Positions 2,378 to 62,000 of a stretch of 64,000 nucleotides of DNA are shown piece by piece. The translations under genes and the position numbers were made by a program. Under the pieces are notes generated by a model that saw only the letters and a list, made by a program, of their open reading frames with translations, ran no database searches and had not been told where the DNA came from. This stretch comes from Deltaproteobacteria bacterium (GTDB lineage: Bacteria; Myxococcota_A; Polyangia; JAAYKL01), in NCBI GenBank assembly GCA_030595125.1, contig JAUVDV010000021.1, forward strand, positions 5,338 to 69,337, in the 5' to 3' direction. Position 1 is the stretch's first letter, and every line of letters begins with the position of its first letter.

Positions 2378-2477
2378 TACTTCCTCCTCTTTGCCGGAAG
2401 ATATTGCCTACCTATAACCGGAATGCATTTTGCGCATCTTACCATCTGTCGAGGCGACGCCAAGTGATCTTTGCGCT

Positions 2478-3695: not shown

Positions 3696-3836
3696 GCACG
3701 ACTTATAGATCGACGCTTCGGTCCGGGCAATGGAGTCAGTGCGCATTTTTCACCGGAGTCCGTCATGTTTTTTTACTTATTGAACAGTGCATAATCCACA
3801 ATGCAGGTGTAGTATTTTGGCGAAGGAGGACAATAT

Positions 3837-15645: not shown

Positions 15646-15668
15646 TTATCGGCGGCCGCCATCATCTG
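15594..15668 (+). repeat. direct repeat (left copy) = native 3' end of radical SAM gene + 23 bp
   Basis: tgggtggacgtcacccacatgtttgcaaagctctacgagtatattccctggta + ttatcggcggccgccatcatct; near-identical copy at 16437-16511. Confidence 0.7.
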
Positions 15669-16436
15669 AATTGTAAGGTTTACCCACCACCAAACGAGAA
15701 GAGCCCTCAATCTTTATCCCGCCCAAAACCTATAGGTCGCTTGCTTGATTTCTTTGTCGGGCTCACAAGCAGTCCGATGGCCTCGAAAACGACTTTGAAT
15801 TGTTTGTCGTGGTTTTTCATTTTTATATCGATGTCGGCGAGCTTTTTTGCGAGGGCCTTGTTTGTGGACAGGATCTCGCGCAGTCGTACGAAAGTTCGCA
15901 TGATGGCGATATTAACCTGGATGGCTCGTTGGCTGTTCAAGACGCTGGAGAGCATGGCCACGCCCTGCTCTGTGAAGGCGAGGGGATAATAGCGTCTACC
16001 CCCGTGTCCTTTTGAGGTGCCAGATTGGCACCTCAAGAATTCGTCCTTTGTGAGTTGAAACATGAAATCTTCGGGAAATCTGCCGATGTTTCGTCTGACA
16101 GCTCGATTCATGACTTTTGTTTCTACCTCGTAGAGTTGTGCGAGGTCAGAATCCAAAAGGACTTTCTGTCCGCGAACGATGCGGATCAGGCTGCCGACAT
16201 GTTCAATTGGTACTATTTCGCTTTTACTCATTTCACGATTCCTACTGGTTTTTGTGAGCCCGACCAATATGGCCCGGAGACACTTCTATGAAAGTTGAGC
16301 AACATTTATGCCTGCGATGCATCCCGAGTAGAATGCTTCTGTGGAGGGGATATGCAGATCTCAATTGTTGGTCAAAAGCGGCGAAACATACGGCGCCCGC
16401 CGCCACACGCTGCCGGAACCGCCGGGGGATCGAGTG
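15669..16436. mobile_element. 768-bp insertion flanked by ~75-bp direct repeats, carrying an ORF6N-domain gene
   Basis: Bounded by the duplicated 3' end of the radical SAM gene. No integrase or transposase is visible, so this is a possible remnant of an integrative element. Confidence 0.35.
15707..16267 (-). CDS. ORF6N-domain protein (phage antirepressor-like)
   Basis: N-terminal IVPIEHVGSLIRIVRGQKVLLDSDLAQLYEVETKVMNRAVRRNIGRFPEDFMFQLTKDEF matches the ORF6N/KilA-N-like domain fold pattern. Confidence 0.65.
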   Translation of the reverse strand: MVGLTKTSRNREMSKSEIVPIEHVGSLIRIVRGQKVLLDSDLAQLYEVETKVMNRAVRRNIGRFPEDFMFQLTKDEFLRCQSGTSKGHGGRRYYPLAFTEQGVAMLSSVLNSQRAIQVNIAIMRTFVRLREILSTNKALAKKLADIDIKMKNHDKQFKVVFEAIGLLVSPTKKSSKRPIGFGRDKD

Positions 16437-16511
16437 GGTGGACGTCACCCACATGTTTGCAAAGCTCTACGAGTATATTCCCTGGTAATTGACGGCGGTC
16501 GCCATCATCTT
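16437..16511 (+). pseudogene. duplicated 3' fragment of radical SAM gene (right copy of direct repeat)
   Basis: Encodes ...WVDVTHMFAKLYEYIPW*, identical to the C-terminus of the CDS ending at 15645. The upstream part of ORF 16288..16488 is unrelated. Confidence 0.6.
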
Positions 16512-16555
16512 CCCCTTCCCCCTCGCAGGGGAAGGCCGGGATGGGGTTCATCGGC
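16506..16555. terminator. palindromic ~50-bp element (ccccttcccc...ggggaagg) immediately 3' of ABC ATPase gene
   Basis: catcatcttccccttccccctcgcaggggaaggccgggatggggtt: GC-rich hairpin. A second copy lies at 54381-54430. Confidence 0.45.
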
Positions 16556-17294
16556 GTTGGTCCTGCAAGTGACGGCATACCAGCTGTACGAACGGGCTTT
16601 CGTGCTCCGGGTCCAGGTCTCCGGGGTTGCCGGTGAATACAATCCGCCCCCCGTCCATCACGGCGACATTGTCTCCCAGACGTTGGGCCTCCGAGGGGTC
16701 GTGGGTGACGTGAATGACCGTTGACCCATGTTGTTCAAAGAGCGACGCGAAGAGGTCCAGCAAGTCATCACGCAAACCAATATCCAGATTTGACAGAGGC
16801 TCGTCCAGAAGCACGGCGTCTGGTTCGAGCACCAATGCCCTGGCAATGGCAACCCGTTGCTGCTCGCCGCCCGAGAGCCGGGCAGGGTAGCGCCGGGCCA
16901 TGTTCTCGAGATCAACCTCCGCAAGAACGCGGGCGATCCTCTTTTTCTGTTCGTCACGAGCAACGCGTCTGGATTGCAGGCCGAAAGAAAGGTTCTCCTC
17001 GACAGTGAGGTGTGGCCACAGCGCCAGGTCTTGCAAAACCACAGCGAGATTTCTTTCCTCCGGAGGTGTATGGACTCTTCCCTTATCGCTGACCACGTCG
17101 CCCCGCAGCCGTACCAGACCACGGCTCGGAGCTGCGAATCCCATTATAATTCTCAACAGAGTCGACTTGCCCGAACCCGATGGGCCAAGTAACGACAGCA
17201 CTTCGCCCCTGGAGATTTCGAGTGATATGCTATCGAGAATCTGTGTCCGGTTGTAACCAAATGACACGTCTTGCAATGCGATGACGACGCTCAT
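16548..17294 (-). CDS. ABC transporter ATP-binding protein (Fe3+/thiamine-type importer)
   Basis: Walker A GPSGSGKST, signature LSGGEQQRV, Walker B LLDEP, H-loop. Confidence 0.85.
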   Translation of the reverse strand: MSVVIALQDVSFGYNRTQILDSISLEISRGEVLSLLGPSGSGKSTLLRIIMGFAAPSRGLVRLRGDVVSDKGRVHTPPEERNLAVVLQDLALWPHLTVEENLSFGLQSRRVARDEQKKRIARVLAEVDLENMARRYPARLSGGEQQRVAIARALVLEPDAVLLDEPLSNLDIGLRDDLLDLFASLFEQHGSTVIHVTHDPSEAQRLGDNVAVMDGGRIVFTGNPGDLDPEHESPFVQLVCRHLQDQRR

Positions 17295-25067: not shown

Positions 25068-25931
25068 ATGAAATGTCTTATTATTCTGGTGTTGACGGCT
25101 GTCATTGCAGGTTTGATACCGGCGTGCGGCGGCGGTGATGGGGGTTACGGCGTTACTGACACAGATACGGACACAGATACAGACTCAGATACCGATACCG
25201 ACGCCGACACTGACACTGACACTGATACAGATACTGACACTGACGCAGATACCGACACTGATACTGATGCTGACGCCGGTATGGATGGAAGCACAGACAC
25301 AGATACAGATACGGATACAGACACAGATACAGATACTGGTACCGACACAGGTACCGATACCGGCACGGATACAGGTACCGACACCGGTACTGACACTGGT
25401 ACGGATACGGACACGGGTTCCGACACGGACACGGGTTCCGACACGGGTACTGATCCATCGGAGGCGTGTCACCCGTCGGCGTACGGGTGGGATCCCGCCT
25501 GGGCGGCGCTGGAAGACCAGGTACTGGTTCTGACCAATATCGAGCGTGCGGCGGGGGCGGATTGCGGGACCGAGGGGGTTTTTCCTGCGGCGGGGCCGGT
25601 CACCATGGAGCCCTATCTGCGGTGCGCGGCCAGGGTTCACAGCCTGGATATGGGCACGACCGACTACTTCAGCCATCTCAGCCCGGGTGGGCCCATCGGC
25701 GACGATCCGTGGGCGCGAGGCGCCAACGCCGGATACACGGGCACAATGGTCGGCGAAAACATCTACGCCGGTTCCTCGACGACCCCCGCGAGCGTTGTGG
25801 CCGGCTGGATGGCCTCGGACGGACACTGCGCCAACATCATGAATGGTACGGCCACCGAGATGGGTGTCGGGTACGCCTACGTGGCCGGTAGCACGTGGGG
25901 GCGGTACTGGACTCAAAATTTTGGATACTGA
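25068..25931 (+). CDS. CAP/SCP/PR-1-like domain lipoprotein with long TD/TG-repeat linker
   Basis: MKCLIILVLTAVIAGLIPAC lipobox; ~100 aa (TD)n; C-terminal CAP-domain motifs HCANIMNG, GVGYAY, YWTQNFG. Confidence 0.7.
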   Translation: MKCLIILVLTAVIAGLIPACGGGDGGYGVTDTDTDTDTDSDTDTDADTDTDTDTDTDTDADTDTDTDADAGMDGSTDTDTDTDTDTDTDTGTDTGTDTGTDTGTDTGTDTGTDTDTGSDTDTGSDTGTDPSEACHPSAYGWDPAWAALEDQVLVLTNIERAAGADCGTEGVFPAAGPVTMEPYLRCAARVHSLDMGTTDYFSHLSPGGPIGDDPWARGANAGYTGTMVGENIYAGSSTTPASVVAGWMASDGHCANIMNGTATEMGVGYAYVAGSTWGRYWTQNFGY

Positions 25932-38057: not shown

Positions 38058-40478
38058 ATGTATCTGCGTGTTTTTATTCCGGTATTTCTGGGGATTATCG
38101 TCGGATGGATGGGGTGTTCGGACGGTGGTGGAGGGTTCGATTTCGACCTGGATGGCGGCGGTGATACAGACACCGACGGAGATACCGACGGAGATACCGA
38201 CGGCGACACCGACGGCGACACCGACGGTGATACCGACACGGACACCGACACGGACACCGACACGGACACGGATACCGACACGGATACCGACACAGATACC
38301 GACACGGATACCGGCACAGATACCGGCACGGACACGGGCACCAGCACCGGATTCGACCCCACGGCTGATACAGACGGAGACGGAATCTCGGATGTGGACG
38401 AGGGGATAGCGGTGTTGCTCGACACAGACTCCGACGGAACTCCGGACTACCTGGACACGGACTCGGACGGTGACGGCATCCTGGACGTCGACGAGGCGGG
38501 CGACGGAGATGTGAGCACGGCGCCACTCGACAGCGATTCGGACGGCACGCCTGATTTCCAGGACACGGACTCGGACGGTGATGGCATCCTGGATTCCGTC
38601 GAGGGCAGCGGCGATAGCGATTCGGACGGAACTCCGGATTACCTGGACCTGGACTCGGACGGTGACGGCATCCTGGATTCGGTGGAGACCGATGGCGACG
38701 CTGACAGTGACGGCACGCCGAACTACCTGGACGACGATTCGGACGGAGACGGTATTCCGGATTCGGTGGAGACCGACGCCGATGCGGATTCGGACGGTAC
38801 GGCCAATTACCTGGATCTGGATTCGGATGGCGACGGTCTGTGGGACATTGTTGAGGCGGGTTCGAATCCGCTCATCCCGCAGGATACGGACGGCGACGGC
38901 ACGGCCAATTACCTGGACACGGATTCGGACGGAGACGGGTTGTCGGACAGCCTGGAGGTGATGTACGGCCTGAATCATCTGTCGATAGACACGGACGGAG
39001 ATACCATCTCCGACACGTACGATGGTTTCATGGACACTGACAGCGACGGCACAATCGACGGCCTGGACATGGACACTGACGGCGACGGGATCCCCGATTC
39101 GGTCGAGGCGGGGGACTCGATCCTCTCGACCCCGCCGGTTGATTCGGATGGTGACGGCCTGCCGGACTTCCAGGATCTGGACTCGGACGGGGATCTCCTG
39201 CCTGACGCGGCCGAGCTTGCTGCGGGCACGGATCCCACCGACCCCGACACGGACGGCGACGGCGCCAGCGATTTTGTGGAGGTGGCCGCCGGGACGGATC
39301 CCCTGGACGACGCCGACAATCCTGCCGCCAGCGGGGACTTCGTGTTCATAATGCCATACAACGGCACCGCAACCCCGGCGTACGACACGCTGGACTTCTC
39401 CTCAGATTTGCAAAAAGCGGATCTCTACTTCCTGGTGGATGTGTCCGGCTCCATGGTCAGCATCCTTGACAACATCAAGACCAACATGGCCACGGTCATC
39501 ACCGATGCCACCGCGACGATTCCGGACCTGCAGACCGGAATTGGATCCTTCCTTTACGCTGAATGCGCGAGCTACAAGGTCTACGATCATCGGCTGGACA
39601 TTCAGGCGAGCCCGGCAGTGGCGGCGTCAACCTTCCCCTCGTATAGCACGACCTACGAGTCATGCGGTGGATGCTGCTCCGAGCCACCCCGTTCCGCAAT
39701 GTACTGCGCGGCGACCGGGTTCGGCACCAGTGAGGCCGCTTCGGCGGGAGTTTCAGTTCCATCTGGAATTCCCAACGAAGTGAGTTGCGCCAACGAGCCG
39801 GGAGCGTGCGGGACAGGATACCTTGGCTATCCATGCTTCCGTCCCGGCGCGCGTCCCATCATTGCGGTTGTGACTGACGAGGGCTTCACCCAGTACACCG
39901 GAACCACCCAGGCGGCCACTATCGCCGCCCTCAATGCCATTGGAGCCAAGACCCTGGGGCTCTACGGCGTGGGTTCCTGGGGATATGCCGGGCGCGACGC
40001 CATGGAGATCTTCATGCTGGCTCAGGGGTCGGTGGACTCCTTCGGCAACCCACTGGTTTTTGATGCAACGTCTTCAGCTTCTTCGGTCATTGTAAACGCC
40101 ATCGAGGCGCTCGCCGAGGTCCCGATGGATCTCTGGGCTTACGGGACCGACAATTACGACGGGATAGATAGCTACGGTCTGAACGACACGGTGGACACGG
40201 TCTCCGAGTTCATCGACTACCTGGAGACCACCGATACCGGTGTTATCTGCACTACCTGGCCCACGTACGATGATGACGGCGACAGTCACGATGACACGCA
40301 CCTGCAGGTGGATCCGGGCAACAGGGTCTGCTGGGACATCCACGTCAAGGACAACGTGACGGTTCCCGCAACCACGTACCCGCAGATCTTTACCGCAACC
40401 ATCCATGTGTGGGGAGACGGCGTCACCGAGGTGGACACGCGCACGGTCTTCTTCCTGGTGCCCCCGACTATCGGGTAG
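38058..40478 (+). CDS. secreted lipoprotein: (TD/GD)n linker, ~20 thrombospondin-type-3 calcium-binding repeats, C-terminal vWA-like domain
   Basis: VGWMGCSDGG lipobox; DTDSDGDGILDSVE-type TSP3 repeats; vWA MIDAS start YFLVDVSGSM. Confidence 0.7.
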   Translation: MYLRVFIPVFLGIIVGWMGCSDGGGGFDFDLDGGGDTDTDGDTDGDTDGDTDGDTDGDTDTDTDTDTDTDTDTDTDTDTDTDTDTGTDTGTDTGTSTGFDPTADTDGDGISDVDEGIAVLLDTDSDGTPDYLDTDSDGDGILDVDEAGDGDVSTAPLDSDSDGTPDFQDTDSDGDGILDSVEGSGDSDSDGTPDYLDLDSDGDGILDSVETDGDADSDGTPNYLDDDSDGDGIPDSVETDADADSDGTANYLDLDSDGDGLWDIVEAGSNPLIPQDTDGDGTANYLDTDSDGDGLSDSLEVMYGLNHLSIDTDGDTISDTYDGFMDTDSDGTIDGLDMDTDGDGIPDSVEAGDSILSTPPVDSDGDGLPDFQDLDSDGDLLPDAAELAAGTDPTDPDTDGDGASDFVEVAAGTDPLDDADNPAASGDFVFIMPYNGTATPAYDTLDFSSDLQKADLYFLVDVSGSMVSILDNIKTNMATVITDATATIPDLQTGIGSFLYAECASYKVYDHRLDIQASPAVAASTFPSYSTTYESCGGCCSEPPRSAMYCAATGFGTSEAASAGVSVPSGIPNEVSCANEPGACGTGYLGYPCFRPGARPIIAVVTDEGFTQYTGTTQAATIAALNAIGAKTLGLYGVGSWGYAGRDAMEIFMLAQGSVDSFGNPLVFDATSSASSVIVNAIEALAEVPMDLWAYGTDNYDGIDSYGLNDTVDTVSEFIDYLETTDTGVICTTWPTYDDDGDSHDDTHLQVDPGNRVCWDIHVKDNVTVPATTYPQIFTATIHVWGDGVTEVDTRTVFFLVPPTIG

Positions 40479-42402: not shown

Positions 42403-43479
42403 CTAGATCTCGGTGAAGGTGACGCTGAGGGCATTCACGGTGTTTGCCGCGGCCTCGCTTACCACCAGGTAGGCGTAGGAATCCGAGCTGCTAGTTCCGA
42501 GGATCTGCAGCAATTCGGGATTCTCGGCCGATTGTACGCAGGAATTGGCATTGCAGGAATCGACCTCTCGCAGGGTCACGTTGGAGGAAGTGGTCTCGGC
42601 CACACCGACTGATAATCCGGCCGGAATGCGCACCAAGAACCAGATGTCCTCGCCGCCGCCGCCATCGCCGCAGTTGGTCCCTCCCGAGAACGTTCCCGTG
42701 AAGTCGGTCCAGAGACCGCTCCATGTGAGTGGATACGTGCCCACGTAGATGATCTGCTCACATCCCTCGGACAGACAATACATGTAGTTGCTTGACGAGA
42801 CGTATCCGCAGGTGCCGCTGCAACTGAGAACTGACAGCGAACTCGTGGTGCTGTTGCACCAGATCGTCTGGCTCAGATCCTGGGTGCAGCAGCCGTAGTA
42901 CCAGGGGTTGGGAGAGATGGGCGAGAACGCCCAGGCCGCAGCGTCGCAGGCGGATGGGGGCGGTTCGGGACAGCACACGACCTCGGTCTCCACCAATGCA
43001 GTCATTTCACACTGTGACAGCGTCGTATCCGTATCTGTATCTGTATCGGTGTCCGTGCCTGTGTCCGTGCCTGTGTCCGTGTCGGTGTCTGTGTCGGTGC
43101 CTGTGTCGGTGCCTGTATCGGTTCCGGTGTCTGTTCCGGTGTCCGTGCCGGTATCTGTGCCTGTATCCGTGCCGGTGTCCGTGCCGGTATCCGTGCCGGT
43201 GTCTGTTCCGGTATCCGTGCCGGTGTCCGTGCCGGTATCCGTGCCGGTATTTGTGCCCGTGTCGGTATCGGTGTCCGTGTCGGTATCTGTATCGGTGTCC
43301 GCGTCGGTATCCGTATCGGTGTCCGTATCGGTGTCCGCGTCGGTGTCCGTGTCGCCGTCCGTATCGGTGTCTGTGTCGGTTGCTCCTGCATCCATTTTGA
43401 ACGACGGGAGCTCCCCACTACATCCGATCACCAGGAGCCAGACAAAGAAGATGGTGAAAATACGAAAAAAAGCTTTCAT
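42403..43479 (-). CDS. lipoprotein with ~130-aa (TD/TG)n linker and Cys-rich C-terminal domain
   Basis: FFVWLLVIGCSG lipobox; long TDTDTD/TGTDTG run; CCPEPPPSAC...YYGCC. Confidence 0.55.
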   Translation of the reverse strand: MKAFFRIFTIFFVWLLVIGCSGELPSFKMDAGATDTDTDTDGDTDTDADTDTDTDTDTDADTDTDTDTDTDTDTGTNTGTDTGTDTGTDTGTDTGTDTGTDTGTDTGTDTGTDTGTDTGTDTGTDTGTDTDTDTDTGTDTGTDTDTDTDTDTTLSQCEMTALVETEVVCCPEPPPSACDAAAWAFSPISPNPWYYGCCTQDLSQTIWCNSTTSSLSVLSCSGTCGYVSSSNYMYCLSEGCEQIIYVGTYPLTWSGLWTDFTGTFSGGTNCGDGGGGEDIWFLVRIPAGLSVGVAETTSSNVTLREVDSCNANSCVQSAENPELLQILGTSSSDSYAYLVVSEAAANTVNALSVTFTEI

Positions 43480-49457: not shown

Positions 49458-49569
49458 GGGGCAGACCTTAACTTGGGGGAAGGATGCTTTTCAAGGCCTG
49501 GTAAGCACAAAGGCGCTTGAATACTGCCTGCTCCCCGGCGTCCAAATTATTGAACGCACAAGGCGGGAA

Positions 49570-50271
49570 ATGAAAGGGATTGCCATGAAAACCGGTCGAA
49601 TGGAGGTCTTTGCCAGGGGGTTGAAACGAGCGGGGACGCTGGGAACTTTCGGGGTCTTTTTCGCGTTGCTTTGTGGTGCCCTGCTTGTAAGCGGTCAGGT
49701 TTCCGCCAATGGTCACGCGATCATCGGTAGAGATGCGGTTCTCGATGACCTCGACGACGCGCTTGCGATCATAGGCCAGCTGGAGTTTCAGTCGCAGGCT
49801 TGTCACGGTGGCTCTTGCGTGCGCATGAACAAGAATATTTCAAAGCTCGAGCGCAAACTTCGAAGACTCAAAAAGCACATTCGCCGTGCCCCGTCTCGTC
49901 GACACAATGCCAATGTCGATCTTCGCCACGACGTTTTTCCATATGGCCAGCCTGCCGCCGGGCCGGTGCATCGTGTTATCGACAGGGCCTCGTTTTCTGC
50001 CCTCCTCGCAGTCATGCGTGACGAAAGTTTTGCCGACGACAAGCTGCGTGTTGTCAGGCAAGCGGCCCGCGACTCCTACTTTATGGTGGACCACGTTCTT
50101 CGCATTCTCGACCTCTTCTCTTTTGGAGATGACAAGCTCAAGGCGCTGAAGATGTTGGCGCCACGCATCTACAACCCCGCGCAGAGTTTTCGTGTTTACG
50201 AGGCTTTTGATTTCGACAGCGACCGCGACAGGGCCGCCGAGATTCTCGGGCGCAACGCCCATCGACATTAG
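49570..50271 (+). CDS. DUF4476-domain protein (secreted)
   Basis: C-terminal FADDKLRVVRQAARDSYFMVDHVLRILDLFSFGDDKLKALKMLAPRIYNP pattern; N-terminal signal/TM segment. Confidence 0.55.
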   Translation: MKGIAMKTGRMEVFARGLKRAGTLGTFGVFFALLCGALLVSGQVSANGHAIIGRDAVLDDLDDALAIIGQLEFQSQACHGGSCVRMNKNISKLERKLRRLKKHIRRAPSRRHNANVDLRHDVFPYGQPAAGPVHRVIDRASFSALLAVMRDESFADDKLRVVRQAARDSYFMVDHVLRILDLFSFGDDKLKALKMLAPRIYNPAQSFRVYEAFDFDSDRDRAAEILGRNAHRH

Positions 50272-50280
50272 CGCGTTGCT

Positions 50281-50505
50281 CGAAAAATGGGGTCACGAAA
50301 AATGGGGTCACGAAAACGAAAAATGGGGTCAAAACCCTCCACTTGACATATAGGTTTTGAGAACCTACCCATCTAACCGATTGGTCATTCTTAAGTGTCT
50401 GTGTTCATACACTAAACAAACGTTTAGCTCGGATTCTTGGAAATTTTGACCATGAAGATCTACGGTTAATGCCACTTTATATGTCAAGTGGAGGGTTTTG
50501 ACCCC
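50281..50505. repeat. AT-rich island with three ~15-bp direct repeats (gaaaaatggggtca) and 28-bp perfect terminal inverted repeats
   Basis: IR arms 50333-50360 (ggggtcaaaaccctccacttgacatata) and 50478-50505 (exact reverse complement), enclosing 117 bp at ~35% GC in a ~62% GC background. Confidence 0.6.
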
Positions 50506-50522
50506 CCCCTGGCGAATAGCTC

Positions 50523-51737
50523 CTACGGACAATTAGCCGGAACCGGCGTGCATGTGTCGTTGCGGTTGTCGTGGATATTTATCGTATTGGGCACGTAATC
50601 GAGCTGGTCCAGCAGGTCGCACGTTTCGCAGTCGAAAAGGTTATCGTTGTGCCGGATCCAGATCTCCTTACCCACCGAGGTGATCCCGCCAAGACCATCC
50701 AGGTTGGTAATGGCGGGGCTGCTTGAAATTTCCAACGCCCAACCCACCGAGGTGATCTCGCTCAGGCCGTCAATGTCGGTCAGGGCGTAGTTGTCATCCA
50801 TCCGCAAGCTCCCGGCCACCGAGGTGATCCCGCTCAGCCCGTCAATGTTTTCGAGAACTTCGTTGAAATAGAATTCCAGGCGCCCGACCACCGAGCCGGT
50901 AATGCCGCTCAGCCCGTCAATGTTTGTGAGGGCAAAATTATACCAAATACTCATGTCTCCATCCAGCGAGCCTGTGATGTTGCTCAGGCCGTCAAGGTTG
51001 GTGAGGGCGTAGTTGCATTCAATCCACAAGCCCCCGCCTACCGAGGTGATCCCGCTCAGGCCGTCGAGGTTTGCAAGGACCGGGTTGCCGCCGTCCGGAC
51101 TCATTTCGCCGCTGCTGCCGGAAAAACAGAATCCAATTGTCAAGTTCCCACCCACTGAGGTGATGCCGCTCAGGCCGTCCAGGTTTGTGAGGGCGTCGTT
51201 GCCATCGATGCTCAGGCCCCCTCCAATCGAGCCGGTGATCCCGCTCAGGCCGTCCAGATTGGTGAGGAATCTGTTGTCGCCGATGCTCAGGCCCCCGCCC
51301 ACCGAGGTGATGCCACTCAGACCGTCCAGGCTTGTGAGGGCGTTGTTCCTTGAGATATACAAGCCGCCCACCGAGGTGATGCCACTCAGATCGTCAAGGT
51401 TTGTAAGGCCTGGGTTGCCGCCGCTATAATAACCATCAATTACCAGGCCCCCGCCCACCGAGGTGAGGCAAATCAACTCGCTCAATTCGGTGCACGAAGG
51501 GCACTCGATTGTAAGGTTTCCCGAGATCGATGTGTATCCCGCGAGGGTTGCGACATCAGAATAATTGATTATCTCAAAATCGCCGCTGTACTCTCCCAGG
51601 TTGCACTCGATCGGGCCGGTATCGGTATCGGAGTCGGAGTCAGTGTCGGTCGTCCCACTGTCTCCGATGGACGAAACGTGCGAACAGCCGGCGAAAACCA
51701 GCGCCAGGATCAACAAGAGATATTTGATATCGATCAT
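50523..51737 (-). CDS. secreted lipoprotein with ~12 leucine-rich-like 22-aa repeats (LTNLDGLSGITSVGGxLxIxxN)
   Basis: LALVFAGC lipobox; TDTDSDSDTDTG linker; periodic L..L..L.GL..I..V.G.L.I repeats (receptor-L/LRR_5-like). Confidence 0.65.
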   Translation of the reverse strand: MIDIKYLLLILALVFAGCSHVSSIGDSGTTDTDSDSDTDTGPIECNLGEYSGDFEIINYSDVATLAGYTSISGNLTIECPSCTELSELICLTSVGGGLVIDGYYSGGNPGLTNLDDLSGITSVGGLYISRNNALTSLDGLSGITSVGGGLSIGDNRFLTNLDGLSGITGSIGGGLSIDGNDALTNLDGLSGITSVGGNLTIGFCFSGSSGEMSPDGGNPVLANLDGLSGITSVGGGLWIECNYALTNLDGLSNITGSLDGDMSIWYNFALTNIDGLSGITGSVVGRLEFYFNEVLENIDGLSGITSVAGSLRMDDNYALTDIDGLSEITSVGWALEISSSPAITNLDGLGGITSVGKEIWIRHNDNLFDCETCDLLDQLDYVPNTINIHDNRNDTCTPVPANCP

Positions 51738-52060
51738 CACGGCCCGCCTCCATCTGTCGGGATGATCATATCATTTTTGGGACACAAAAAACTGATTACA
51801 CGCCGATGACGGCAAGTCCCATGGCTCGTGCGGCGCTTGCGAGCATCTTGTCGTGGGTGGCCATGGTCAGCTTGATGCCTCTAATATCGCGATAGGCGAG
51901 CGCAGTTGAAAGATGGATGGCATCCAGAGTGCCCAGGGGCGTGGGAAAAGACGACGAGGCTCTGGAGAAGAATCGAGATAGACCTTCATCGATCAGAACG
52001 TTCTTTCATGAGCGCCTGCAGGCTGCGAGGGGAGGACATCGTTCTGGTCGGAATGCGGTA

Positions 52061-54715
52061 TCAACCTGGCCACCACAGGTCAATAACGGTCTCGATCAGG
52101 CCGGGATCTTTCGAAGGCCGGTCGCCGACGGTATCGCATCCGCAGCCGTCATCGCCGCTGCCGGGGGGACTCTCGATGACGGAGATGTGCGCCAACGCTT
52201 CGGCGAAGAGGCCCGTGTCATCCCGAACCCTGGCCTTCAGGATATACTCGCCGATCTCTTCGAAGGTCACCTCTCTGTTGGAGGCGGCGGTGTAGTCGTC
52301 ATCCCAGGTGCCGTCGTAGTCGTCATCCCACTTGATCTGGAGCTGGCTCTCATCGCTGTCTTCGTCCTGGACCACAACTTCAATTACCATTGGCTTTCCT
52401 GCAAAGGCTTCCCCCGGGACCAGGCTGACGGTGGGCGCCACGCCGTCATTTGATACGCCCAGCGCGCCGGCGGCGTTCAGTCTCCCCCAGCCGTAGGCAT
52501 AGTTGGGAACATCGCCCACCATGTCGTCCACGTGCGCGCCGTCCCTGATGGCCTGCGTTGCGTCGTCGCCTACGATTCCGATCTGTGCCAGCATCGCCGT
52601 GACGCCGGTTACGTGGGGACCGGCGCCGGACGTTCCACCGAACGGAGCTACCGCGCCGTGCGGGACGACGTCACCGCCGGAGGCCTGTCCGTGGGCGGTG
52701 GCTGCCCATGGGTTGTCAGGGGCGGTGATGTCCGGCTTTTGTCGTCCGTCGATGGTCGGCCCCTGGCCGGAGTAGTAACGCACTTCACCGGGATCACCCT
52801 CCGCGTAGAACCACGGTTCTTCCGGTGTGGTGGGGTGTCCGGTATGCGCGCCGATGGCGATGCAGGTCTCCGAGGTCGCGGGCCAGCCGATGGTCCTGTC
52901 ATCTGTGGCGATGCTCTCGTCCCATGCCACGCCTACTCCCCAACTGGAAGTGTTGTCCGACAGATATGCATCGATATTCAGATCGCCAGCGCCCTGTTCG
53001 ACTGCGCTCAGCAACCAATCGCCCAGGGGGATTTCACTGGCAGAGCTATCCGCATACAAGATGACCTCATGAAAACGGGTCCCCTTCACCGTCTCCAGAT
53101 AGCTATGATAATACTGCGCGCCGCCGCTCAGCGGGCCGGTCTCCATGGTCGTTGTCAGGACGATGGGATCGCCGACGGGCGGAGTCAGGGTCAGGAGTGC
53201 GTCACCTATCCCTCGGAGGTTGATCGAGAGGTTGATGTAGTAGAGTCCTTGAAGGTTTGAAACTTCGAAGGCCGCCTGCTGCGAACCTCCCGATGGGAGT
53301 TCCATGCGCGTATGCTTGCGACCGCCGCCGGTGTTTCCGACGGGGCAGGTGTGCGTCACCCCGTCTGATACGGTGGATTCATCGACCATCACGGAGGTGA
53401 TGTCCGTTCCGTCGAGTGGCTCGCCGTACCAGTTGGCCCGCTCGTGCAGAACCACGTCGGCGCCCTCCGAGAGCACCCATGTGAGTCCCGTGCCGCCGTA
53501 TCCGGCGTCCATGTCAACTGCGAGCATGAGATCCACGCCCGGCGCCACGCCGACCCATCGCCGGCCTGCCAGGGGAACATCGCCCGCGATGATGGACATC
53601 ACTCCGGTGGCGTGCCCTGCCGCAGAGAAGACATCCGATTCGTTCAGGAAGTTGGTATCAAACTCCGCCAGATCCACACCCCGTTCGTAGACGCGATCAA
53701 TCGTCTCGTAACCGGAGTAGTTGAAGAAATGGAAAACCTTTGCGATCTTCGAGGTGCCCAGCCGCGCAACCCGCTCGCCCTTGTCGAGGATCCCGTTCGC
53801 GTTGAGATCATCGGGTACGAAGAGCGGTTCTCCCAGTGCAGGGGTTTCGTCGTCAAATCCGTTGGCTGCGCCGTAGTCGCGCTCGCCGTTGGCGTTCTCG
53901 TCAATGTAAAGCCAATCGATGGCGGGTTCAAAGCCGTCCTCCCGCGCATCGACAGGGTAACCGTATTGGAGCATGACCGTCTCCGAGCGCAGCAGCAGGC
54001 CGGTTTCGTTCAGCGCGACGCCGTCGCCGTCAAGGTCGATCGCGTCGATACCGGGGGTAAACGCCTCGTCGCCGTCCACGTCGATCCAATCGAAATACCC
54101 CGCGTCGGCGCGGAAGAACTGGGGGTGAAAGATATCGGCGTTCGTATCTATGTTCGCCACGAGGATTCCTTCTCCGGTGAGCAAGTCCATGGTCGGTTGG
54201 CTTCCCCAGGCGGCCTTCAATCCTATCAAATCCGCGCTGTGATCCATCGGAGCAGGCCCCCGTGCCGGCGCGGACACTATTTGTTGCACGTGGGATAATC
54301 GGGACAGCGCCTGCAGGGCGTCGCGGTCCACTGTCGCCGGGACGAACTGCCTGTAATGTAAAATGCCTTTAAAGCGGTCTCCATCATCTTCCCCTTCCCC
54401 TACCTCAGGGGAAGGCCGGGATGGGGTTAGTTTTCGGAGGTGCGCGCCGGCCGCCTCCAGTGAACAGAGAATTTCACTAGTGGCCGGTGTGTCCAGACGG
54501 ATCACCACCGGTACCAGGTTCGCGTAACGCACACATGCAGCTTCGTCTATGGACGGACCGTGCACCATCCGGGGCACAGCGTGCTCGATTTCGAGCAGAA
54601 CCCTCGAATCCACCTTTGTCTGGATCAGATTCTCGGCGTCGGACTGTGCCCATGCTGTGTTTGCGGCAAGTAGCAAAATGGCTGATAAAGCTAGGTTTTT
54701 GTGCATCGCTGACAA
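52061..54715 (-). CDS. subtilisin-like serine protease (peptidase S8) with I9-like propeptide and inserted TSP3-like Asp loops
   Basis: Signal peptide; Asp region VANIDTN; His region AGHATGVMSIIAG; Ser motif GTSGAGPHVTGVTAML. Confidence 0.8.
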   Translation of the reverse strand: MSAMHKNLALSAILLLAANTAWAQSDAENLIQTKVDSRVLLEIEHAVPRMVHGPSIDEAACVRYANLVPVVIRLDTPATSEILCSLEAAGAHLRKLTPSRPSPEVGEGEDDGDRFKGILHYRQFVPATVDRDALQALSRLSHVQQIVSAPARGPAPMDHSADLIGLKAAWGSQPTMDLLTGEGILVANIDTNADIFHPQFFRADAGYFDWIDVDGDEAFTPGIDAIDLDGDGVALNETGLLLRSETVMLQYGYPVDAREDGFEPAIDWLYIDENANGERDYGAANGFDDETPALGEPLFVPDDLNANGILDKGERVARLGTSKIAKVFHFFNYSGYETIDRVYERGVDLAEFDTNFLNESDVFSAAGHATGVMSIIAGDVPLAGRRWVGVAPGVDLMLAVDMDAGYGGTGLTWVLSEGADVVLHERANWYGEPLDGTDITSVMVDESTVSDGVTHTCPVGNTGGGRKHTRMELPSGGSQQAAFEVSNLQGLYYINLSINLRGIGDALLTLTPPVGDPIVLTTTMETGPLSGGAQYYHSYLETVKGTRFHEVILYADSSASEIPLGDWLLSAVEQGAGDLNIDAYLSDNTSSWGVGVAWDESIATDDRTIGWPATSETCIAIGAHTGHPTTPEEPWFYAEGDPGEVRYYSGQGPTIDGRQKPDITAPDNPWAATAHGQASGGDVVPHGAVAPFGGTSGAGPHVTGVTAMLAQIGIVGDDATQAIRDGAHVDDMVGDVPNYAYGWGRLNAAGALGVSNDGVAPTVSLVPGEAFAGKPMVIEVVVQDEDSDESQLQIKWDDDYDGTWDDDYTAASNREVTFEEIGEYILKARVRDDTGLFAEALAHISVIESPPGSGDDGCGCDTVGDRPSKDPGLIETVIDLWWPG
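54381..54430. repeat. second copy of the ~50-bp ccccttcccc/ggggaagg palindromic element, lying in-frame inside the S8 protease propeptide-linker coding region
   Basis: ccatcatcttccccttcccctacctcaggggaaggccgggatggggtt; translated in the gene frame as SRPSPEVGEGEDDGDRFKG. Confidence 0.55.
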
Positions 54716-54888
54716 CGCGTTCTGCCAATGTGGGGCGAAAATGCCCCAATGTTTGGCTTTAATTCAACATTTGCATAAACCGTTCCACGGGCATTTAGAT
54801 TCTTCGATACACTTGGTTTACCATTAGGGTTTAAAATGCTGGTATCGATGTTGGTGCGAACAATGCAATTTTGGGGAAGGTAGCAATT

Positions 54889-55707
54889 ATGAAAATACTG
54901 TTTTTGCATTTGTGTCTGGTTGTTCTCGTGACCCTGTCTGTTTCCTGCGCTAAAAGCGTGCTTGAGCCTGGATCGGGCAGCTCCGATTCCGATTCGGACA
55001 GCGATTCCGATTCTGACACCGACACCGACACCGACTCTGACTCCGACACGGACACGGATTCGGACACGGACAGCGACACGGACACCGACACCGACTCCGA
55101 TACGGACACGGACACAGACACCGACACGGATACCGACACAGACACCGATACCGATACCGACACGGGTACGGATACCGGCACCGACACCGGTACGGATACC
55201 GGCACCGACACGGGTACGGATACCGGCACGGGAACGCTGGTCTGCATAGATTTCGATGGTTCATCCGCCCCGAGCACATTCTCTTCGACAACCGCTCTGA
55301 GTACGGCTTATTCGGGCCTCGGTGTGACCTTTTCGGGGCCATCCGTCGGAAGTGGCGGGGCCATTTTGAATGAAGCAGGAGGTTTTGGCGTTTCCGGACA
55401 CAGTTCGCCAAACTTCGTGGCTTTCAATTCGGGCGCGCCTCTTTCGGGCGGAGGAATTCCCATTGGGCCCGAGACGATTCAGTTCACTACACCCGCAACT
55501 TCAGTCAGTGTCTGGGTGGCTGCCAGTAGTGGAGGTACAGTTACGATGACGGCATACAATGGTGTCGGCGGCGTTGTGGACACCGATACAGGCTCGCTTT
55601 CATCCAGCGTAACCGAGTACCAGACGGCCGGAGCAGGAATCGACCATGTTGTTCTTCAGACTACTGTTGCAGTCTGGGTTTTTGACGACCTGTGTTTTGT
55701 CAATTAG
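54889..55707 (+). CDS. lipoprotein with ~100-aa (SD/TD/TG)n linker and C-terminal beta-rich domain
   Basis: MKILFLHLCLVVLVTLSVSC lipobox; SDSDSD...TDTDTD...TGTDTG. Confidence 0.55.
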   Translation: MKILFLHLCLVVLVTLSVSCAKSVLEPGSGSSDSDSDSDSDSDTDTDTDSDSDTDTDSDTDSDTDTDTDSDTDTDTDTDTDTDTDTDTDTDTGTDTGTDTGTDTGTDTGTDTGTGTLVCIDFDGSSAPSTFSSTTALSTAYSGLGVTFSGPSVGSGGAILNEAGGFGVSGHSSPNFVAFNSGAPLSGGGIPIGPETIQFTTPATSVSVWVAASSGGTVTMTAYNGVGGVVDTDTGSLSSSVTEYQTAGAGIDHVVLQTTVAVWVFDDLCFVN

Positions 55708-59094: not shown

Positions 59095-62000
59095 ATGTCT
59101 TCGATTTTCCGAAACACGATGGTCCGGTTGTCCGTGCTCGGGTTGGTGTTGGCGATGGTGGGATGCGCGGACGAAGAGGATGACGGCTCCACTGGCGGCG
59201 GTGCCGTCGGGGGCAGCGCGGTAGTCGACGACCAGGCGCTCGCGGATGCGCCGGACGTGTCGGCGCCGTTCGACATCTCGGCGGTGATCCGCCAGGTGCA
59301 CTTCGCGTTTCGACCCGACGGCGACGGGTTCAAGGGTGGGCACGACACCTACTCGGTACGAGTGGATCGGAAGGGCGCGATCACGGTGACACCGTACATC
59401 GCACAGGAGAACATCGTCGCGGGTGCCCCGGCCACCTTCGAGACCGTGTCCGTGGAACGGCGCCAGGGTCGGCTCGACTTCGTCGCCGCCTCGCCGACGG
59501 GTCGACAGGACGGCGGGCTGGAGATGCCACGCGGCCCGGCGCGGGAGATGCTCAAGAACTCCGAAGAAGGCGTCGAACAGAGCTGGAGCTTCGAGAGCGA
59601 GCCGGCAGGGGACGGCGATCTGACGATACGGGTTCGCGTCACCGGCATGGATTACTCCGACCGAACCGAGCACGGACTTCATTTTCAGGACAGCGGGACC
59701 GGTCTGGGATTCAGGTACGGCAACGCGACCTGGATCGATGCCGAGGGAAACGAAACCCGTGTGATACCGGGGTATCGAAACGGTGAGGTCGTGATGTCGG
59801 TGCCGGCGGAGGTGCTCGCTGTCTCGAGCTATCCGGCAGTGCTGGATCCCGTGATCGGTCCAGAGTTCGGGATGGACCAACCGGTTTATACTCCTACGTA
59901 CTACGATCAAGACTTTCCCAAAATCGGGTCGGACGGGAGCGATTATTTCGTCGTTTGGCGGGACAACCGTGCCAACGACAGGTCGATTATAGGGACGCGA
60001 GTTACTCCGGCGGGAGTGGTTCTCGATCCGTACGGAATCGATATATCGCTGAGCACCCAAGGCCAGAATTCCCCTGCCGTCGCCTTCGGCGGAACTCACT
60101 ACCTGGTGGTCTGGAGGGATTCGCGCAATCCGAGTTATGACATCTACGGCGCCCGGGTCGATACCAACGGTGTCGTGCTCGACGAGGAAGGTATTCCGAT
60201 CTCGACGGCGCCGGGCCATCAGGACTTACCTCGTATCGCCTACGACGGCTCCAGGTTCCTGGTGGTCTGGGAAGACCAGCGAGACTACGCGACTACCCAG
60301 GATGACATCTACGGCGCCCGGGTCGATAATGCCGGTGTCGTGCTGGACACCGGCGGGATCGCCATATCGACGGACACAGACTATCAGCGGTCCCCGGCAG
60401 TCTCGTGCGGCGGGACCAGCTGCCTGGTCGTCTGGAATGACAACCGCGCCGACTCCAATTCGAGCTGGGATATCTATGGGGCCAGGGTGACCACCACTGG
60501 AACCGTCCTCGACCCCGCAGCCTTCTCCATCTGCGAGCATGTGCACGACCAAGACAGCCCAACCGTTGCGTTCGACGGGACCAACTACCTGGTGGTGTGG
60601 AGGAGAAACAGCACCGTGTATGGGGCCAGGGTGGCCCCGGACGCCAGCGTGTTGGATAGCGATGGTTTCGTCATCTCGACGCTGTCGACCGGCTATTATC
60701 CAGCCGTCGCGTTCTCAGGAGTTGTCTATCTGGTGGTCTGGGTTTGGGGCGGTGATATTCGCGGAGTCCGGGTCAGCACCGGCGGCAGCGTGCTCGACGC
60801 GGCAGATATCGTCATCTCTGCGGCGCCCAGCACCGAGCTATATCCGGAGGTCGCGTCGGCCGGAGGCGGTTTCCTGGTGGTCTGGCAAGACGACGACGGC
60901 TTCTGGCCCACCGGGCTCGACATTTTTGGAGCGCGGGTCGGCGCCGACGGCGCCGTCCTCGATCCGACGCCGATCGAGATCGCACAGGGTGCCAACGACC
61001 AGGAGAGCCATGCGGTGGCCTACGGCAGCGACATGTATCTGGTCGTCTGGAGGGACAACCGTAACTACCCGGTCACCGACGACGATATCTACGGCGTTCG
61101 CGTCGACAGCTCCGGGACCGTGCTCGATCCCACGGGAATCGCGATCTCGACTGCGGCCGACGAGCAGGACAGTCCTGCGGTGGCCTTCGACGGGGTAAAC
61201 TTCCTGGTCGTCTGGGACGACAATCGGGTCGGATACCAGGTCAAGATATACGGGACCCTGGTCGGCACTGACGGGGTCGTCGACGAGGTGGACGGCTTCT
61301 ACATTGCACACTACAGCAGCGTCTTTGATGCCGACTGTTTCAACCCTGACGTGGCGTTCGACGGAAACGTTTACCTGGCTGTCTGGCAGGTAGAGAGTGC
61401 TCTAGTGTATGGCAGGACGATCAGCACCGAAGGCGCGCTTCTCGGAGAGCATTTCCCTATCAGCGATAGCAGCGGCGACGACCAGTGCAATCCCAGGGTC
61501 GCGGCCAACGGCGCGCAGTTCCTGGTCGTCTGGGATGACGAGCGCAACTTCTCGACCAACGGCTGGGACATATACGGCGCCAGGGTGAGTTCGATCGGCG
61601 GCGTCCTCGACACCGTCCCGATTCAGATCTCGGACGTCATGAGCGATCAACTGTCACCATCGATCGCCGCCGACGGAACCAACTACATGGTCGTCTGGGA
61701 CGACAAGCGCTTCTCGGCCAACCCCGACATCTACGCCGGCAGGCTCGACACCAGCGGCAACGTTCTGGACGGTATCGGGGTCGCCATCGCGGCCACCGTC
61801 GGATCACAGACGTCGCCCACCGTCGCATTCGACGGGACGGATTTTGTCATCGCCTGGCAGGACGGACGCAACTACAATACCACCGGGTACGATATCTGGG
61901 GGGCCCGAGTCGATTCGTCGCTGACGGTCCTCGATCCGGCGGGGATCGAGCTCTCGGCGGAGAACTTCATGGAGTACCATCCCGAGCTCGCCTCCAACGG

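What the first reader, a model, noticed from the sequence alone, without database searches (positions are those of the whole stretch)
54381..54430. Intergenic-type palindromic element (also the terminator at 16506-16555) embedded in-frame inside the S8 protease coding sequence
The ~50-bp element catcatcttccccttcccc-N5/6-ggggaaggccgggatggggtt occurs immediately 3' of the ABC ATPase gene, where it looks like a terminator. It occurs again inside the 884-aa S8 protease ORF, where it is translated without stops as SRPSPEVGEGEDDGDRFKG in the linker between the I9-like propeptide and the catalytic domain. In-frame domestication of a palindromic repeat into a coding linker is unusual. It could attenuate transcription or translation within the gene, or mark a recent insertion.
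Basis: seen in the sequence. Interest (0 to 1): 0.55.

Follow-up and report, generated by a model that had tools for sequence, protein, structure and literature searches.

The report
Mobile hairpin repeat inside protease gene
A roughly 58-base copy of a multi-copy palindromic mobile repeat has landed in frame inside a secreted protease gene, adding an 18-residue floppy loop to its removable pro-domain; such events are known from other bacteria, so this is a well-documented new example, not a new phenomenon.

Summary
The window holds two copies of a 58-61 nt imperfect palindrome: 16489-16548, between convergent genes, and 54369-54429, inside the S8 protease ORF.

The element belongs to an undescribed family. 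I found over 200 copies in two sister MAGs (CSMAG_2956, CSMAG_220) and in sediment metagenome contigs. Most copies sit at gene 3' ends, with their T-T-R-A termini overlapping stop codons.

The S8 copy is a lineage-specific insertion of net +54 nt (18 codons). It is absent from 86 aligned homologues plus two more orthologues, from the sister MAGs, that are 91% identical in DNA. It lies in the beta2-beta3 hairpin turn inside the subtilisin-type pro-domain, not in a linker after that domain, and it is modelled as a disordered loop. The gene is intact, with dN/dS about 0.17.

The element has no T-run, so it is not a canonical intrinsic terminator. I found no evidence for domestication or attenuation.

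About 5% of family copies are in frame inside other real genes (ComF, a kinase-AAA_16 protein, FHA, response regulator, patatin, PMT_2). These use both orientations and at least five reading frames, which argues for tolerated selfish insertions, as with Rickettsia RPEs and intragenic REPs.

The integration mechanism and the mobilising enzyme are unresolved. Verdict: new member of a known kind, of moderate interest.

The parts
54369..54429 (-). Element copy B (long-loop subtype), inside the S8 ORF. On the gene strand it reads TAA-CCCCATCCCGGCCTTCCCC-TGAGGTA-GGGGAAGGGGAAGATGATGGAGACCGC-TTTAA.
   Evidence: nhmmer score 65.3 bits, E 1.4e-18. 96.7-98.3% identical to copies L044, L009 and L023.
54393..54401 (.). 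Copy B, left arm of the inner 9-bp stem (CCTTCCCCT on the + strand).
   Evidence: strand folding.
54407..54415 (.). Copy B, right arm of the inner stem (AGGGGAAGG on the + strand).
   Evidence: strand folding.
54365..54427 (-). The 21 codons (TPSRPSPEVGEGEDDGDRFKG) that stand where orthologues have 3 codons (EAN / ETR / KNR). Net gain is 54 nt, or 18 aa.
   Evidence: DNA alignments. Protein alignment of 87 sequences. Sequences P0228 and P0229.
52061..54706 (-). S8 subtilase gene (881 aa from the ATG; signal peptide, pro-domain, large catalytic domain, PKD-like C-terminal domain). Intact.
   Evidence: Pfam PF00082. 107 homologues. AF2 model with pLDDT 87.6. Foldseek hits to CspB and Tk-SP. dN/dS 0.17.
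54263..54523 (-). Subtilisin-type pro-domain (beta-alpha-beta-beta-alpha-beta) that hosts the insert in its beta2-beta3 turn.
   Evidence: Secondary structure and pLDDT. Foldseek top hits are pro-subtilisin E, the subtilisin BPN' prosegment and the Tk-subtilisin propeptide (TMt 0.63-0.70, rmsd 2.3-2.8 for the best).
16489..16548 (-). Element copy A (short-loop type with one extra loop base), exactly filling the gap between convergent stop codons.
   Evidence: nhmmer score 60.2 bits.
16514..16521 (.). Copy A, left arm of the inner stem.
16528..16535 (.). Copy A, right arm of the inner stem.
16548..17294 (-). ABC transporter ATPase gene. Its TGA stop codon (16548-16550) overlaps the end of copy A by one base.
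   Evidence: PF00005.
16435..16488 (+). Duplicated last 54 nt, including the TAA stop, of the radical-SAM gene 14635-15645. It abuts the other end of copy A.
   Evidence: Repeat family D19.

Best explanation
Copy B is a recent, lineage-specific insertion of a small non-autonomous mobile palindromic element into the S8 protease gene. The element is of the REP/MITE kind. Its unit is 52-54 nt, plus a T-T-R-A-type terminal repeat.

The family normally sits immediately after genes. Its T-T-R-A ends overlap stop codons, probably because that target is found mostly at stop codons in this GC-rich genome. There it is transcribed as a 3'-UTR or intercistronic hairpin.

In the S8 gene it hit a CTT-GAA (TTGA) site in the beta2-beta3 turn of the cleavable subtilisin-type pro-domain. 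The copy survives for three reasons. The net change is in frame (+54 nt). This particular copy is stop-free in the frame that is read. The encoded Pro/Gly/Asp/Glu-rich 18 residues form a disordered surface loop in a domain that is discarded after folding.

Shown: repeat-family membership, absence from all orthologues, position in the fold, an intact gene under purifying selection, and recurrence of in-frame copies in other genes.

Inferred: transposition with a 3-5 nt target duplication plus loss of 4 target bases, neutrality of the loop, and no terminator or attenuator role.
For: Family: 42 full copies in the window plus two sister MAGs, and 173 more in metagenome loci.

Insertion: only P0001 among 87 aligned homologues has the segment. 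CSMAG_2956 and CSMAG_220 orthologues, 91.4% identical in DNA, lack it, as does L001.

Position: the pro-domain fold and the low-confidence loop (pLDDT 54-57, against about 93 for the flanking strands) come.

Gene alive: the ORF is intact, the alignment-invariant columns include H365 and S693, and dN/dS is 0.17 overall and 0.21-0.23 for the N-terminal 160 codons.

Usual niche: 82 of 154 copies have a coding-like ORF ending within 30 nt of an element end, with offsets peaking at +1 to +4. Convergent genes bracket 23 of them.

Target duplication: the flanking and terminal 3-, 4- and 5-mers match more often than in shuffles over 167 de-replicated loci (38 vs 20.7, 22 vs 10.7, 15 vs 4.2). Clean filled/empty pairs are L121/L060 and L172/L036. 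The empty S8 sites carry TTGA (L072, L001) or TTGG (L071).

Recurrence in genes: ComF carries a copy that is present in two independent assemblies and absent in 7 close and all distant orthologues. Pfam-supported hosts in metagenome loci are Pkinase+AAA_16, FHA, Response_reg, PMT_2 and Patatin.

Frame logic: three of the six frames of the short form are fully open and two more are closed only by the terminal TAA. The S8 copy is open only in the frame actually used.
Against: The filled S8 allele is seen in a single assembly.

The junction is not clean. Element (53 nt) plus TTTAA (5 nt) gives 58 nt, but the net gain is 54 nt, so an accompanying 4-nt loss must be assumed.

Many copies show no matching flanks. 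The ComF insertion is instead flanked by a 9-11 nt repeat of the element's own end motif, which already exists once in the empty alleles.

No transposase was found. A RAYT motif search and a DUF559 HMM search over 1.5 Mb of fetched loci were both negative.

No expression data exist, so an RNA-level effect inside the gene cannot be excluded.
Confidence: 0.8

Rival explanations
1. The copy reached S8, and the family spreads in general, not by transposase-mediated cut/copy-and-paste but by microhomology-mediated copying. This would be template switching or gene-conversion-like repair from another copy, or from a tandem or circular intermediate, seeded by short homology between the target and an element end.
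For: The ComF empty alleles already contain CGGGATGGGGTT, which equals the element's end motif, and the filled allele is motif-57 nt-motif. The L054 copy is flanked by a 13-nt repeat GGATGGGGTTGCC. L060 and L105 carry an extra 'tail' ahead of the unit. The empty S8 site in L072 has GAAACCCGC, identical to the tail of element variants (TTGGAAACCCGC in L105/L059). Tandem arrays of 57 nt are common.
Against: Most copies lack such flank homology. The significant T-T-R-A flank/terminus correlation and the clean small duplications fit transposition better. The S8 tail match (9 nt) has roughly a few-percent chance expectation once family variants are allowed for.
Confidence: 0.25
2. The insert has been domesticated. 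It would act as an intragenic RNA hairpin that attenuates transcription or translation of the protease, or as a functional peptide such as a new processing or regulatory loop in the pro-domain.
For: The hairpin is stable (-22.8 kcal/mol in the mRNA sense, -28.9 in the antisense). The gene remains under purifying selection.
Against: There is no T-run or terminator-like site. The mRNA-sense fold is no better than shuffles (z = -0.9). The insert is confined to one lineage and is 96.7-98.3% identical to other copies, hence young. Other intragenic copies are read in at least five frames and both orientations in unrelated proteins. The loop is modelled as disordered.
Confidence: 0.07
3. The segment is ancestral to the S8 family and was deleted in relatives, or its similarity to the intergenic element is coincidental.
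For: Element copies do get deleted. Hairpin-less remnants and precise losses are seen at three other loci.
Against: All 86 aligned homologues, down to 28% identity, lack it, and two further orthologues at 91% DNA identity also lack it. All keep a constant 3-4-residue turn at that point. The 41 specified bases of the two arms match copy A exactly, with about 0 expected by chance. Copy B is 96.7-98.3% identical to copies in a sister genome.
Confidence: 0.02
4. Assembly or binning artefact: the repeat was spliced into the S8 contig by the assembler.
For: The filled allele occurs in only one assembly. Contigs of this lineage often break at tandem copies of the element.
Against: The element (58 nt) is shorter than the k-mers named in the sister assemblies' contig names (k119, k127), so it should not create graph ambiguity. 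The result is exactly in frame and stop-free. An analogous intragenic copy (ComF) is seen in two independent assemblies.
Confidence: 0.03

Closest known systems
Rickettsia palindromic elements (RPEs; Ogata et al. 2000, as summarised in PMC10969869 and PMC3733652)
   Same: A multi-copy palindromic selfish repeat found both between genes and in frame inside unrelated, still-functional genes. Insertions add short peptide segments that appear compatible with the fold.
   Different: RPEs are about 100-150 bp, AT-rich, and live in reduced obligate-intracellular Alphaproteobacteria. Nearly half of RPEs are intragenic. Here the unit is 57-59 nt, GC-rich, and in a large-genome free-living sediment lineage (Myxococcota-like 'Deltaproteobacteria' MAGs), and only about 5% of copies are intragenic. 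Sequence relatedness to RPEs was not tested.
REP / REPIN elements with RAYT transposases (GTAG- and CGTC-tagged families; PMC3733652, PMC3116915)
   Same: Short imperfect GC-rich palindromes, dozens to hundreds of copies, located mainly downstream of genes between unidirectional or convergent ORFs. Occasional intragenic in-frame copies occur in known proteins.
   Different: The consensus has no GTAG or CGTC tag. The unit is longer (58-61 nt against 20-40). Head-to-tail 57-nt tandems occur instead of the typical inverted dimers. There is evidence for short T-T-R-A flank duplications. No RAYT-like ORF was found in 1.5 Mb of fetched loci (a weak test).
Bacterial MITEs (ERIC, Correia/NEMIS, QMITE of Coxiella and others; PMC10969869, PMC5896051, PMC3184786)
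   Same: Small non-autonomous elements with inverted termini and short target duplications. They can form in-frame fusions with host ORFs and are co-transcribed as hairpins.
   Different: This element is smaller than most MITEs (70-300 bp). The whole element is one hairpin. No parent IS has been identified. A TNA / T-T-R-A duplication would resemble the IS5-family (IS1031 group) or PIF/Harbinger; that comparison rests on my recollection and was not tested.
Rho-independent (intrinsic) terminators
   Same: A GC-rich hairpin placed directly after stop codons, often between convergent genes.
   Different: No U/T tract follows the stem on either strand. The scan finds no terminator-like site at either copy.

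Membership tests
Intrinsic terminator | GC-rich stem-loop immediately followed by a run of T/U | tested here: not met
   A stem-loop is present, but neither strand has a T-run. scan_promoters_terminators finds nothing at 16489-16548 or 54369-54429.
REP (GTAG/CGTC super-families) | Short extragenic imperfect palindrome in many copies, mostly downstream of ORFs | tested here: met
   More than 200 copies. 82 of 154 abut a gene 3' end.
REP (GTAG/CGTC super-families) | Conserved GTAG or CGTC tetranucleotide tag at one end | tested here: not met
   The family consensus TAACCCCATCCCGGCC...GGCCGGCTTTAA contains neither tag. CGTC occurs only in copy A's variant tail.
REP (GTAG/CGTC super-families) | Association with a RAYT (IS200/IS605-like Y1 transposase) gene flanked by the repeats | tested here: inconclusive
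   A regex for RAYT C-terminal motifs found nothing in 1.54 Mb of loci plus the window. Whole genomes were not scanned and the test is crude.
MITE | Terminal inverted repeats | tested here: met
   The termini TTAAC..CCGGCC and GGCCGG..CTTTAA are inverted, and the whole unit folds as one long imperfect hairpin.
MITE | Target-site duplication of fixed length | tested here: inconclusive
   Flank and terminus k-mers match significantly more often than in shuffles, and two filled/empty pairs are clean. Many copies do not match, and the ComF and S8 junctions do not fit a simple TSD.
MITE | A related autonomous IS with the same ends | not tested
RPE-like 'coding-compatible' palindromic repeats (a functional class, not a sequence family) | The same repeat inserted in frame in several unrelated, otherwise conserved genes | tested here: met
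   S8. ComF. Pkinase+AAA_16 with a tandem dimer inside the AAA_16 match, FHA, Response_reg, PMT_2 and Patatin.
RPE-like 'coding-compatible' palindromic repeats (a functional class, not a sequence family) | Insertions fall in loops or linkers and leave the fold intact | tested here: met
   For S8 only: the insert is in the beta2-beta3 turn with pLDDT 54-57, while the flanking strands are at about 93. The other hosts were not modelled.
Peptidase S8 with subtilisin-type (I9-like) pro-peptide | Subtilase catalytic domain with conserved catalytic residues | tested here: met
   PF00082 at E 8e-15. Columns invariant across 87 sequences include H365 and S693 within GTSG. Foldseek hits to CspB at E 1e-23. 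The catalytic Asp was not singled out.
Peptidase S8 with subtilisin-type (I9-like) pro-peptide | N-terminal beta-alpha-beta-beta-alpha-beta pro-domain | tested here: met
   Topology. The top Foldseek hits are subtilisin prosegments (3whi, 1spb_P, 3cnq_P, 1scj_B; probability 0.99-1.0, but E only 0.03-0.3). Pfam I9 itself did not hit.

The most novel reading that the evidence does not exclude
The element is one branch of a cross-phylum super-family of G-rich hairpin repeats, with core CTTCCCCTTCCCC..GGGGAAGGCCGGGATGGGG. Its autonomous partner would be a small DUF559 (Vsr-like) endonuclease gene bracketed by the hairpins, a 'REPtron'-like arrangement with a different enzyme. In this lineage the 57-nt (19-codon) unit, mostly stop-free, would have become a systematic source of new surface loops in proteins of a free-living bacterium, an RPE-like process outside intracellular parasites.
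Probability: 0.15. Interest if true: 0.7.

Novelty: new member of a known kind. Interest (0 to 1): 0.4.

Why it matters
It gives a cleanly dated natural experiment. The same protease gene exists with and without an 18-residue repeat-encoded loop in genomes about 9% apart, and there are at least six further host genes. This shows how selfish palindromic repeats add peptide segments to working proteins in a large-genome, free-living lineage, not only in Rickettsia.

It also matters for annotation. The element ends supply or overlap stop codons, and tandem copies break assemblies.

Finally, it offers filled, empty and decayed alleles from which the still-unknown integration mechanism could be worked out.

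Tried and rejected
- **Rfam.** The whole window at gathering threshold, the site at E<=10, and 18 loci from other phyla gave no RNA family at the element.
- **Literature search for the element's sequence strings.** Nothing relevant turned up.
- **Terminator hypothesis.** Rejected, because there is no T-run.
- **Small ORF within the element, or the element's ATGATG serving as a start for downstream genes.** The ATG frame is in phase with the next gene in about a third of copies, which is the chance level.
- **Other apparent through-reading ORFs in MAG loci.** Those at L003, L010, L020, L031, L053 and others have junk-like translations or lie opposite real genes, and were discarded.
- **RAYT motif search and DUF559 HMM search in lineage loci.** Both negative.
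- **A simple TSD model for the S8 and ComF junctions.** It does not fit.
- **Covariation test of the hairpin.** Not attempted, because copies were collected with an exact-match pattern that fixes the stem.
- **The look-up of encoding contigs for P0001.** It found no record, so the source assembly of the window was not identified. It is neither CSMAG_2956 nor CSMAG_220, because each of those carries its own empty-site orthologue.
Full report
**1. The observation**

They lie at 16503-16521/16527-16548 and at 54382-54400/54407-54428, with 0.07 and 0.00 matches expected from shuffles. Alignment with related copies and an nhmmer profile extend the unit to 16489-16548 (copy A) and 54369-54429 (copy B). 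Both are in the same orientation on the - strand, and the window holds no further copies, even diverged ones.

Copy B lies inside the 884-codon ORF 52061-54715 (-). This ORF has an ATG at 54706 and a clear signal peptide, and it is read through without stops as ..KL-TPSRPSPEVGEGEDDGDRFKG-ILHY...

Copy A fills the gap between two convergent stop codons. One is the TGA of an ABC ATPase gene (16548-16550). The other is the TAA of a duplicated 3' end of a radical-SAM gene (16486-16488).

**2. What the element is**

A pattern scan of one genome per species found dozens of copies in two MAGs labelled 'Deltaproteobacteria bacterium' CSMAG_2956 (JAUXHN01) and CSMAG_220 (JAUVAN01). A scan of metagenome contigs found 120 more loci, mostly SDBV01/SDBT01, holding 173 profile matches.

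On the strand that is the sense strand in S8, the consensus is [T-(A/G)-A]CCCCATCCCGGCCTTCCCCTG-(CG or ARRT)-AGGGGAAGGGGAAG(A/T)TGATGGNGGCCGGCTTTAA. There are two length classes that differ by 2 nt in the loop. The whole unit is one long imperfect hairpin with an inner 8-10 bp G/C stem. Rfam has no matching family, and the held literature does not contain the sequence.

**3. Where the family normally sits**

Of 154 distinct copies with enough flank, 82 have a long, coding-like ORF ending within 30 nt of one element end. The offsets peak at +1 to +4, meaning the stop codon lies in the element's terminal TAA/TTAA. In 23 cases convergent genes bracket the element, as at copy A. Many copies are followed within 10-25 nt by a Shine-Dalgarno sequence and the ATG of the next gene.

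The tetranucleotide preceding CCCC is mostly TTGA, TTAA or NTAA. It matches the element's terminal tetranucleotide more often than in shuffles, after de-replication to 167 loci:

| k-mer | matches observed | shuffle mean ± sd | shuffles reaching observed (of 5000) |
|---|---|---|---|
| triplet | 38 | 20.7 ± 3.7 | 0 |
| 4-mer | 22 | 10.7 ± 2.8 | 1 |
| 5-mer | 15 | 4.2 ± 1.8 | 0 |

 Two filled/empty orthologous pairs show clean small duplications: TTTA in L121/L060, and TTTGA on both sides in L172/L036. I infer a 3-5 nt duplication at T-T-R-A targets. In a GC-rich genome such targets are mostly stop codons, which would explain the position of the copies.

Neither window copy has a T-run, and the terminator scan finds nothing at either site, so these are not canonical intrinsic terminators. 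Copies also decay. Three loci carry hairpin-less remnants (5' motif joined to tail), and one spacer shows full, half-deleted, remnant and empty states in five related genomes.

**4. The S8 copy is an insertion**

The ORF is a subtilase. The evidence is Pfam S8, 107 homologues mostly from Polyangia/Myxococcota-type MAGs, an AlphaFold model at pLDDT 87.6, and Foldseek hits to CspB and Tk-SP.

In an alignment of 87 homologues only the window protein has residues in the 18 inserted columns. All others have a 3-4-residue turn such as DGR, NGR or KNR. The 90%-identity cluster of the window protein contains the orthologues of CSMAG_2956 (L071) and CSMAG_220 (L072). Both are 91.4% identical in DNA over the gene and both are empty at the site. 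This also shows that the window comes from a third, related genome.

Copy B is 96.7-98.3% identical to copies elsewhere in CSMAG_2956 and CSMAG_220. The insertion is therefore young and lineage-specific.

The net gain is 54 nt: 63 nt (54365-54427) stand where relatives have 9 nt. The empty sites read CTT-GAA (L072), TTG-AAA (L001) and TTG-GAA (L071), that is TTGA or TTGG, which fits the family's target. The element (53 nt) plus a TTTAA duplication would add 58 nt, so I infer that 4 target bases (AACC in L072) were lost, restoring the frame. This step is inferred, not shown.

**5. Where it sits in the protein**

The full-length model and a separate model of residues 58-150 both show a beta-alpha-beta-beta-alpha-beta domain. 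The best structural matches for this domain are subtilisin pro-segments: 3whi, 1spb_P, 3cnq_P, 1scj_B and the Tk-subtilisin propeptide. Their TM-scores normalised to the target are 0.63-0.70 and rmsd 2.3-2.8 for the best, with probability near 1 although E-values are only 0.03-0.3.

The insert is the turn between strands 2 and 3 of this domain. It is modelled as coil with pLDDT 54-57, while the flanking strands are at about 93. It is therefore inside the pro-domain, not in a linker between the pro-domain and the catalytic domain.

The gene looks alive. The ORF is intact, the invariant columns include H365 and S693, and dN/dS against the two sister orthologues is 0.17 (0.21-0.23 for the first 160 codons).

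**6. It is not a one-off**

In CSMAG_2956 a ComF-family gene (L008 5185-6039) carries a copy in the opposite orientation, read as SEGGLHQLPLPLAGEGRDG (57 nt). The same insertion is present in an independent ENA assembly (L069). It is absent from seven orthologues of 85-89% identity, including the CSMAG_220 gene, and from all distant ComF proteins.

In the metagenome loci, in-frame copies lie in genes whose flanks carry Pfam domains:
- a Ser/Thr kinase-AAA_16 protein, with a tandem dimer inside the AAA_16 match;
- a double-FHA protein;
- a response-regulator protein;
- a PMT_2 membrane protein;
- a patatin-like lipase.

Two further cases are probable. That is about 5% of roughly 205 copies.

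These intragenic copies use both orientations and at least five reading frames (PIPAFPCEGKGK.., PHPGLPLRGEGEDDGG.., KAGRHHLPLPLAGEGRDGV, ..IIFPFPSQGKAGMG, and the S8 frame). This argues against selection for a particular peptide and for simple tolerance.

In the short form (57 nt per unit including the duplicated end), three of the six frames are fully open and two more are closed only by the terminal TAA. The long form is open in a single frame, and there it is closed only by the terminal TAA. The S8 copy, a long-form variant with a 1-nt-shorter tail, avoids that stop and is read in exactly that frame. This is what survivorship would leave.

**7. Mechanism of spread: unresolved**

Transposition with a small duplication is supported by section 3, but some junctions do not fit:
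- The ComF empty alleles already contain CGGGATGGGGTT, which is identical to the element's end. The filled allele is that motif, 57 nt, and the motif again.
- A copy just downstream of ComF in CSMAG_220 is flanked by a 13-nt repeat.
- L060 and L105 carry an extra element 'tail' in front of the unit.
- Tandem repeats of 57 nt are frequent.
- The empty S8 site in L072 contains GAAACCCGC, a 9-nt match to the tail of some family variants.

Circular or tandem intermediates, or microhomology-mediated copying, remain possible.

No transposase was found near copies. A RAYT motif search and a DUF559 HMM search were both negative in 1.5 Mb. Whole genomes could not be scanned.

**8. Comparison with known systems**

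In-frame insertion of palindromic repeats into working genes is established for Rickettsia RPEs, and it has been catalogued for REPs in several species, where insertions were argued to sit in loops or linkers (PMC10969869; PMC3733652). MITEs such as ERIC and Coxiella QMITE also make in-frame fusions (PMC10969869, PMC5896051).

The present family works like these but is not a member of the GTAG/CGTC REP super-families, because it lacks the tag. It is not a canonical terminator, because it lacks a T-run. It has no identified parent IS.

I therefore file it as a new member of a known kind.

**9. Verdict**

Interest is moderate at 0.4. It is a tidy, datable example with a useful set of filled, empty and decayed alleles and a hint of a wider hairpin super-family, but conceptually it is already known.

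Noticed in passing
window 15592-16510: A 76-nt direct repeat (95% identical; 15592-15667 and 16435-16510) brackets a 767-nt segment that carries only an ORF6N-domain gene (15707-16267, - strand). The repeat consists of the last 54 nt of the radical-SAM gene plus the first ~22 nt of element copy A. The left copy breaks off exactly where the element's inner hairpin would start. This looks like a small cassette integrated into or beside the element, duplicating the gene end.
   Followed up: partly
L005 3544-4094; L062 195-722; L017 6579-7138; L046 5-531: In unrelated bacteria (Dongia, a Rhodospirillales MAG, candidate division FCPU426, Magnetovibrio) the same hairpin core lies within about 50-200 nt of a small DUF559 (PF04480, Vsr-like endonuclease) gene. 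In L005 and L062 the gene is bracketed by hairpins, reminiscent of a REPtron but with a different enzyme. No DUF559 gene was found in the window or in 1.3 Mb of loci from the window's lineage.
   Followed up: partly
L005, L007, L011, L015-L017, L021, L025, L033, L034, L038, L042, L046, L047, L049, L050, L052, L055, L057, L058, L062, L064, L066: The pattern CTTCCCCTTCCCC..GGGGAAGGCCGG (25 specified bases), usually continuing GATGGGG, occurs in Alpha-, Beta- and Gammaproteobacteria, Bdellovibrionota, Planctomycetota, Bacteroidota and FCPU426 genomes. About 0.01 chance matches are expected in the collection. In these genomes it has different outer flanks. This suggests a widely spread hairpin super-family.
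   Followed up: partly
L058 2142-4801: Two copies of the related hairpin, with conserved 15-nt flanks. The first lies directly upstream of a DDE transposase gene (DUF772 + DDE_Tnp_1; 2262-3722). The second lies about 2.6 kb further on, ahead of another large ORF.
   Followed up: no
window 49500-52060: About 2.5 kb between the S8 gene and the C69 peptidase gene, including a gene made of 72-nt leucine-rich-repeat-like units (50522-51740, - strand), is absent from the syntenic contig L001. The two sister MAGs have a PIN-domain gene downstream of S8 instead. This is a variable spot.
   Followed up: no
L013 5719-5744; L036 7422-7456; L008 6040-6069 and L070 967-1001: Hairpin-less remnants of the element, with the 5' motif CCCCATCCCGG joined directly to the tail GCTTT(A/G)A, at positions where relatives have a full copy or nothing. 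The palindrome is apparently excised between short GGCC/CCGGC direct repeats.
   Followed up: partly
L073, L077, L100, L127, L131, L151 (contig ends); L105 3116-3231: Head-to-tail dimers of the element with a 57-nt period are common and often sit at the very ends of metagenome contigs, so they probably break assemblies. One dimer is translated inside an AAA_16 domain.
   Followed up: partly
window 5335-5454, 25112-25447, 38081-38386, 42989-43420, 54915-55268: Long 12-nt-period (Thr/Ser/Gly-Asp)n low-complexity tracts occur in several ORFs on both strands. One is the 278-aa ORF (54871-55707) divergent from the S8 gene, whose N-terminus looks like a lipoprotein signal.
   Followed up: no
window 38418-39280 and 60057-61857: Arrays of 84-108-nt Asp-rich units (thrombospondin-type-3-like calcium-binding repeats) and of about 165-nt units ending in ..YLVVW.. 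lie within large ORFs.
   Followed up: no
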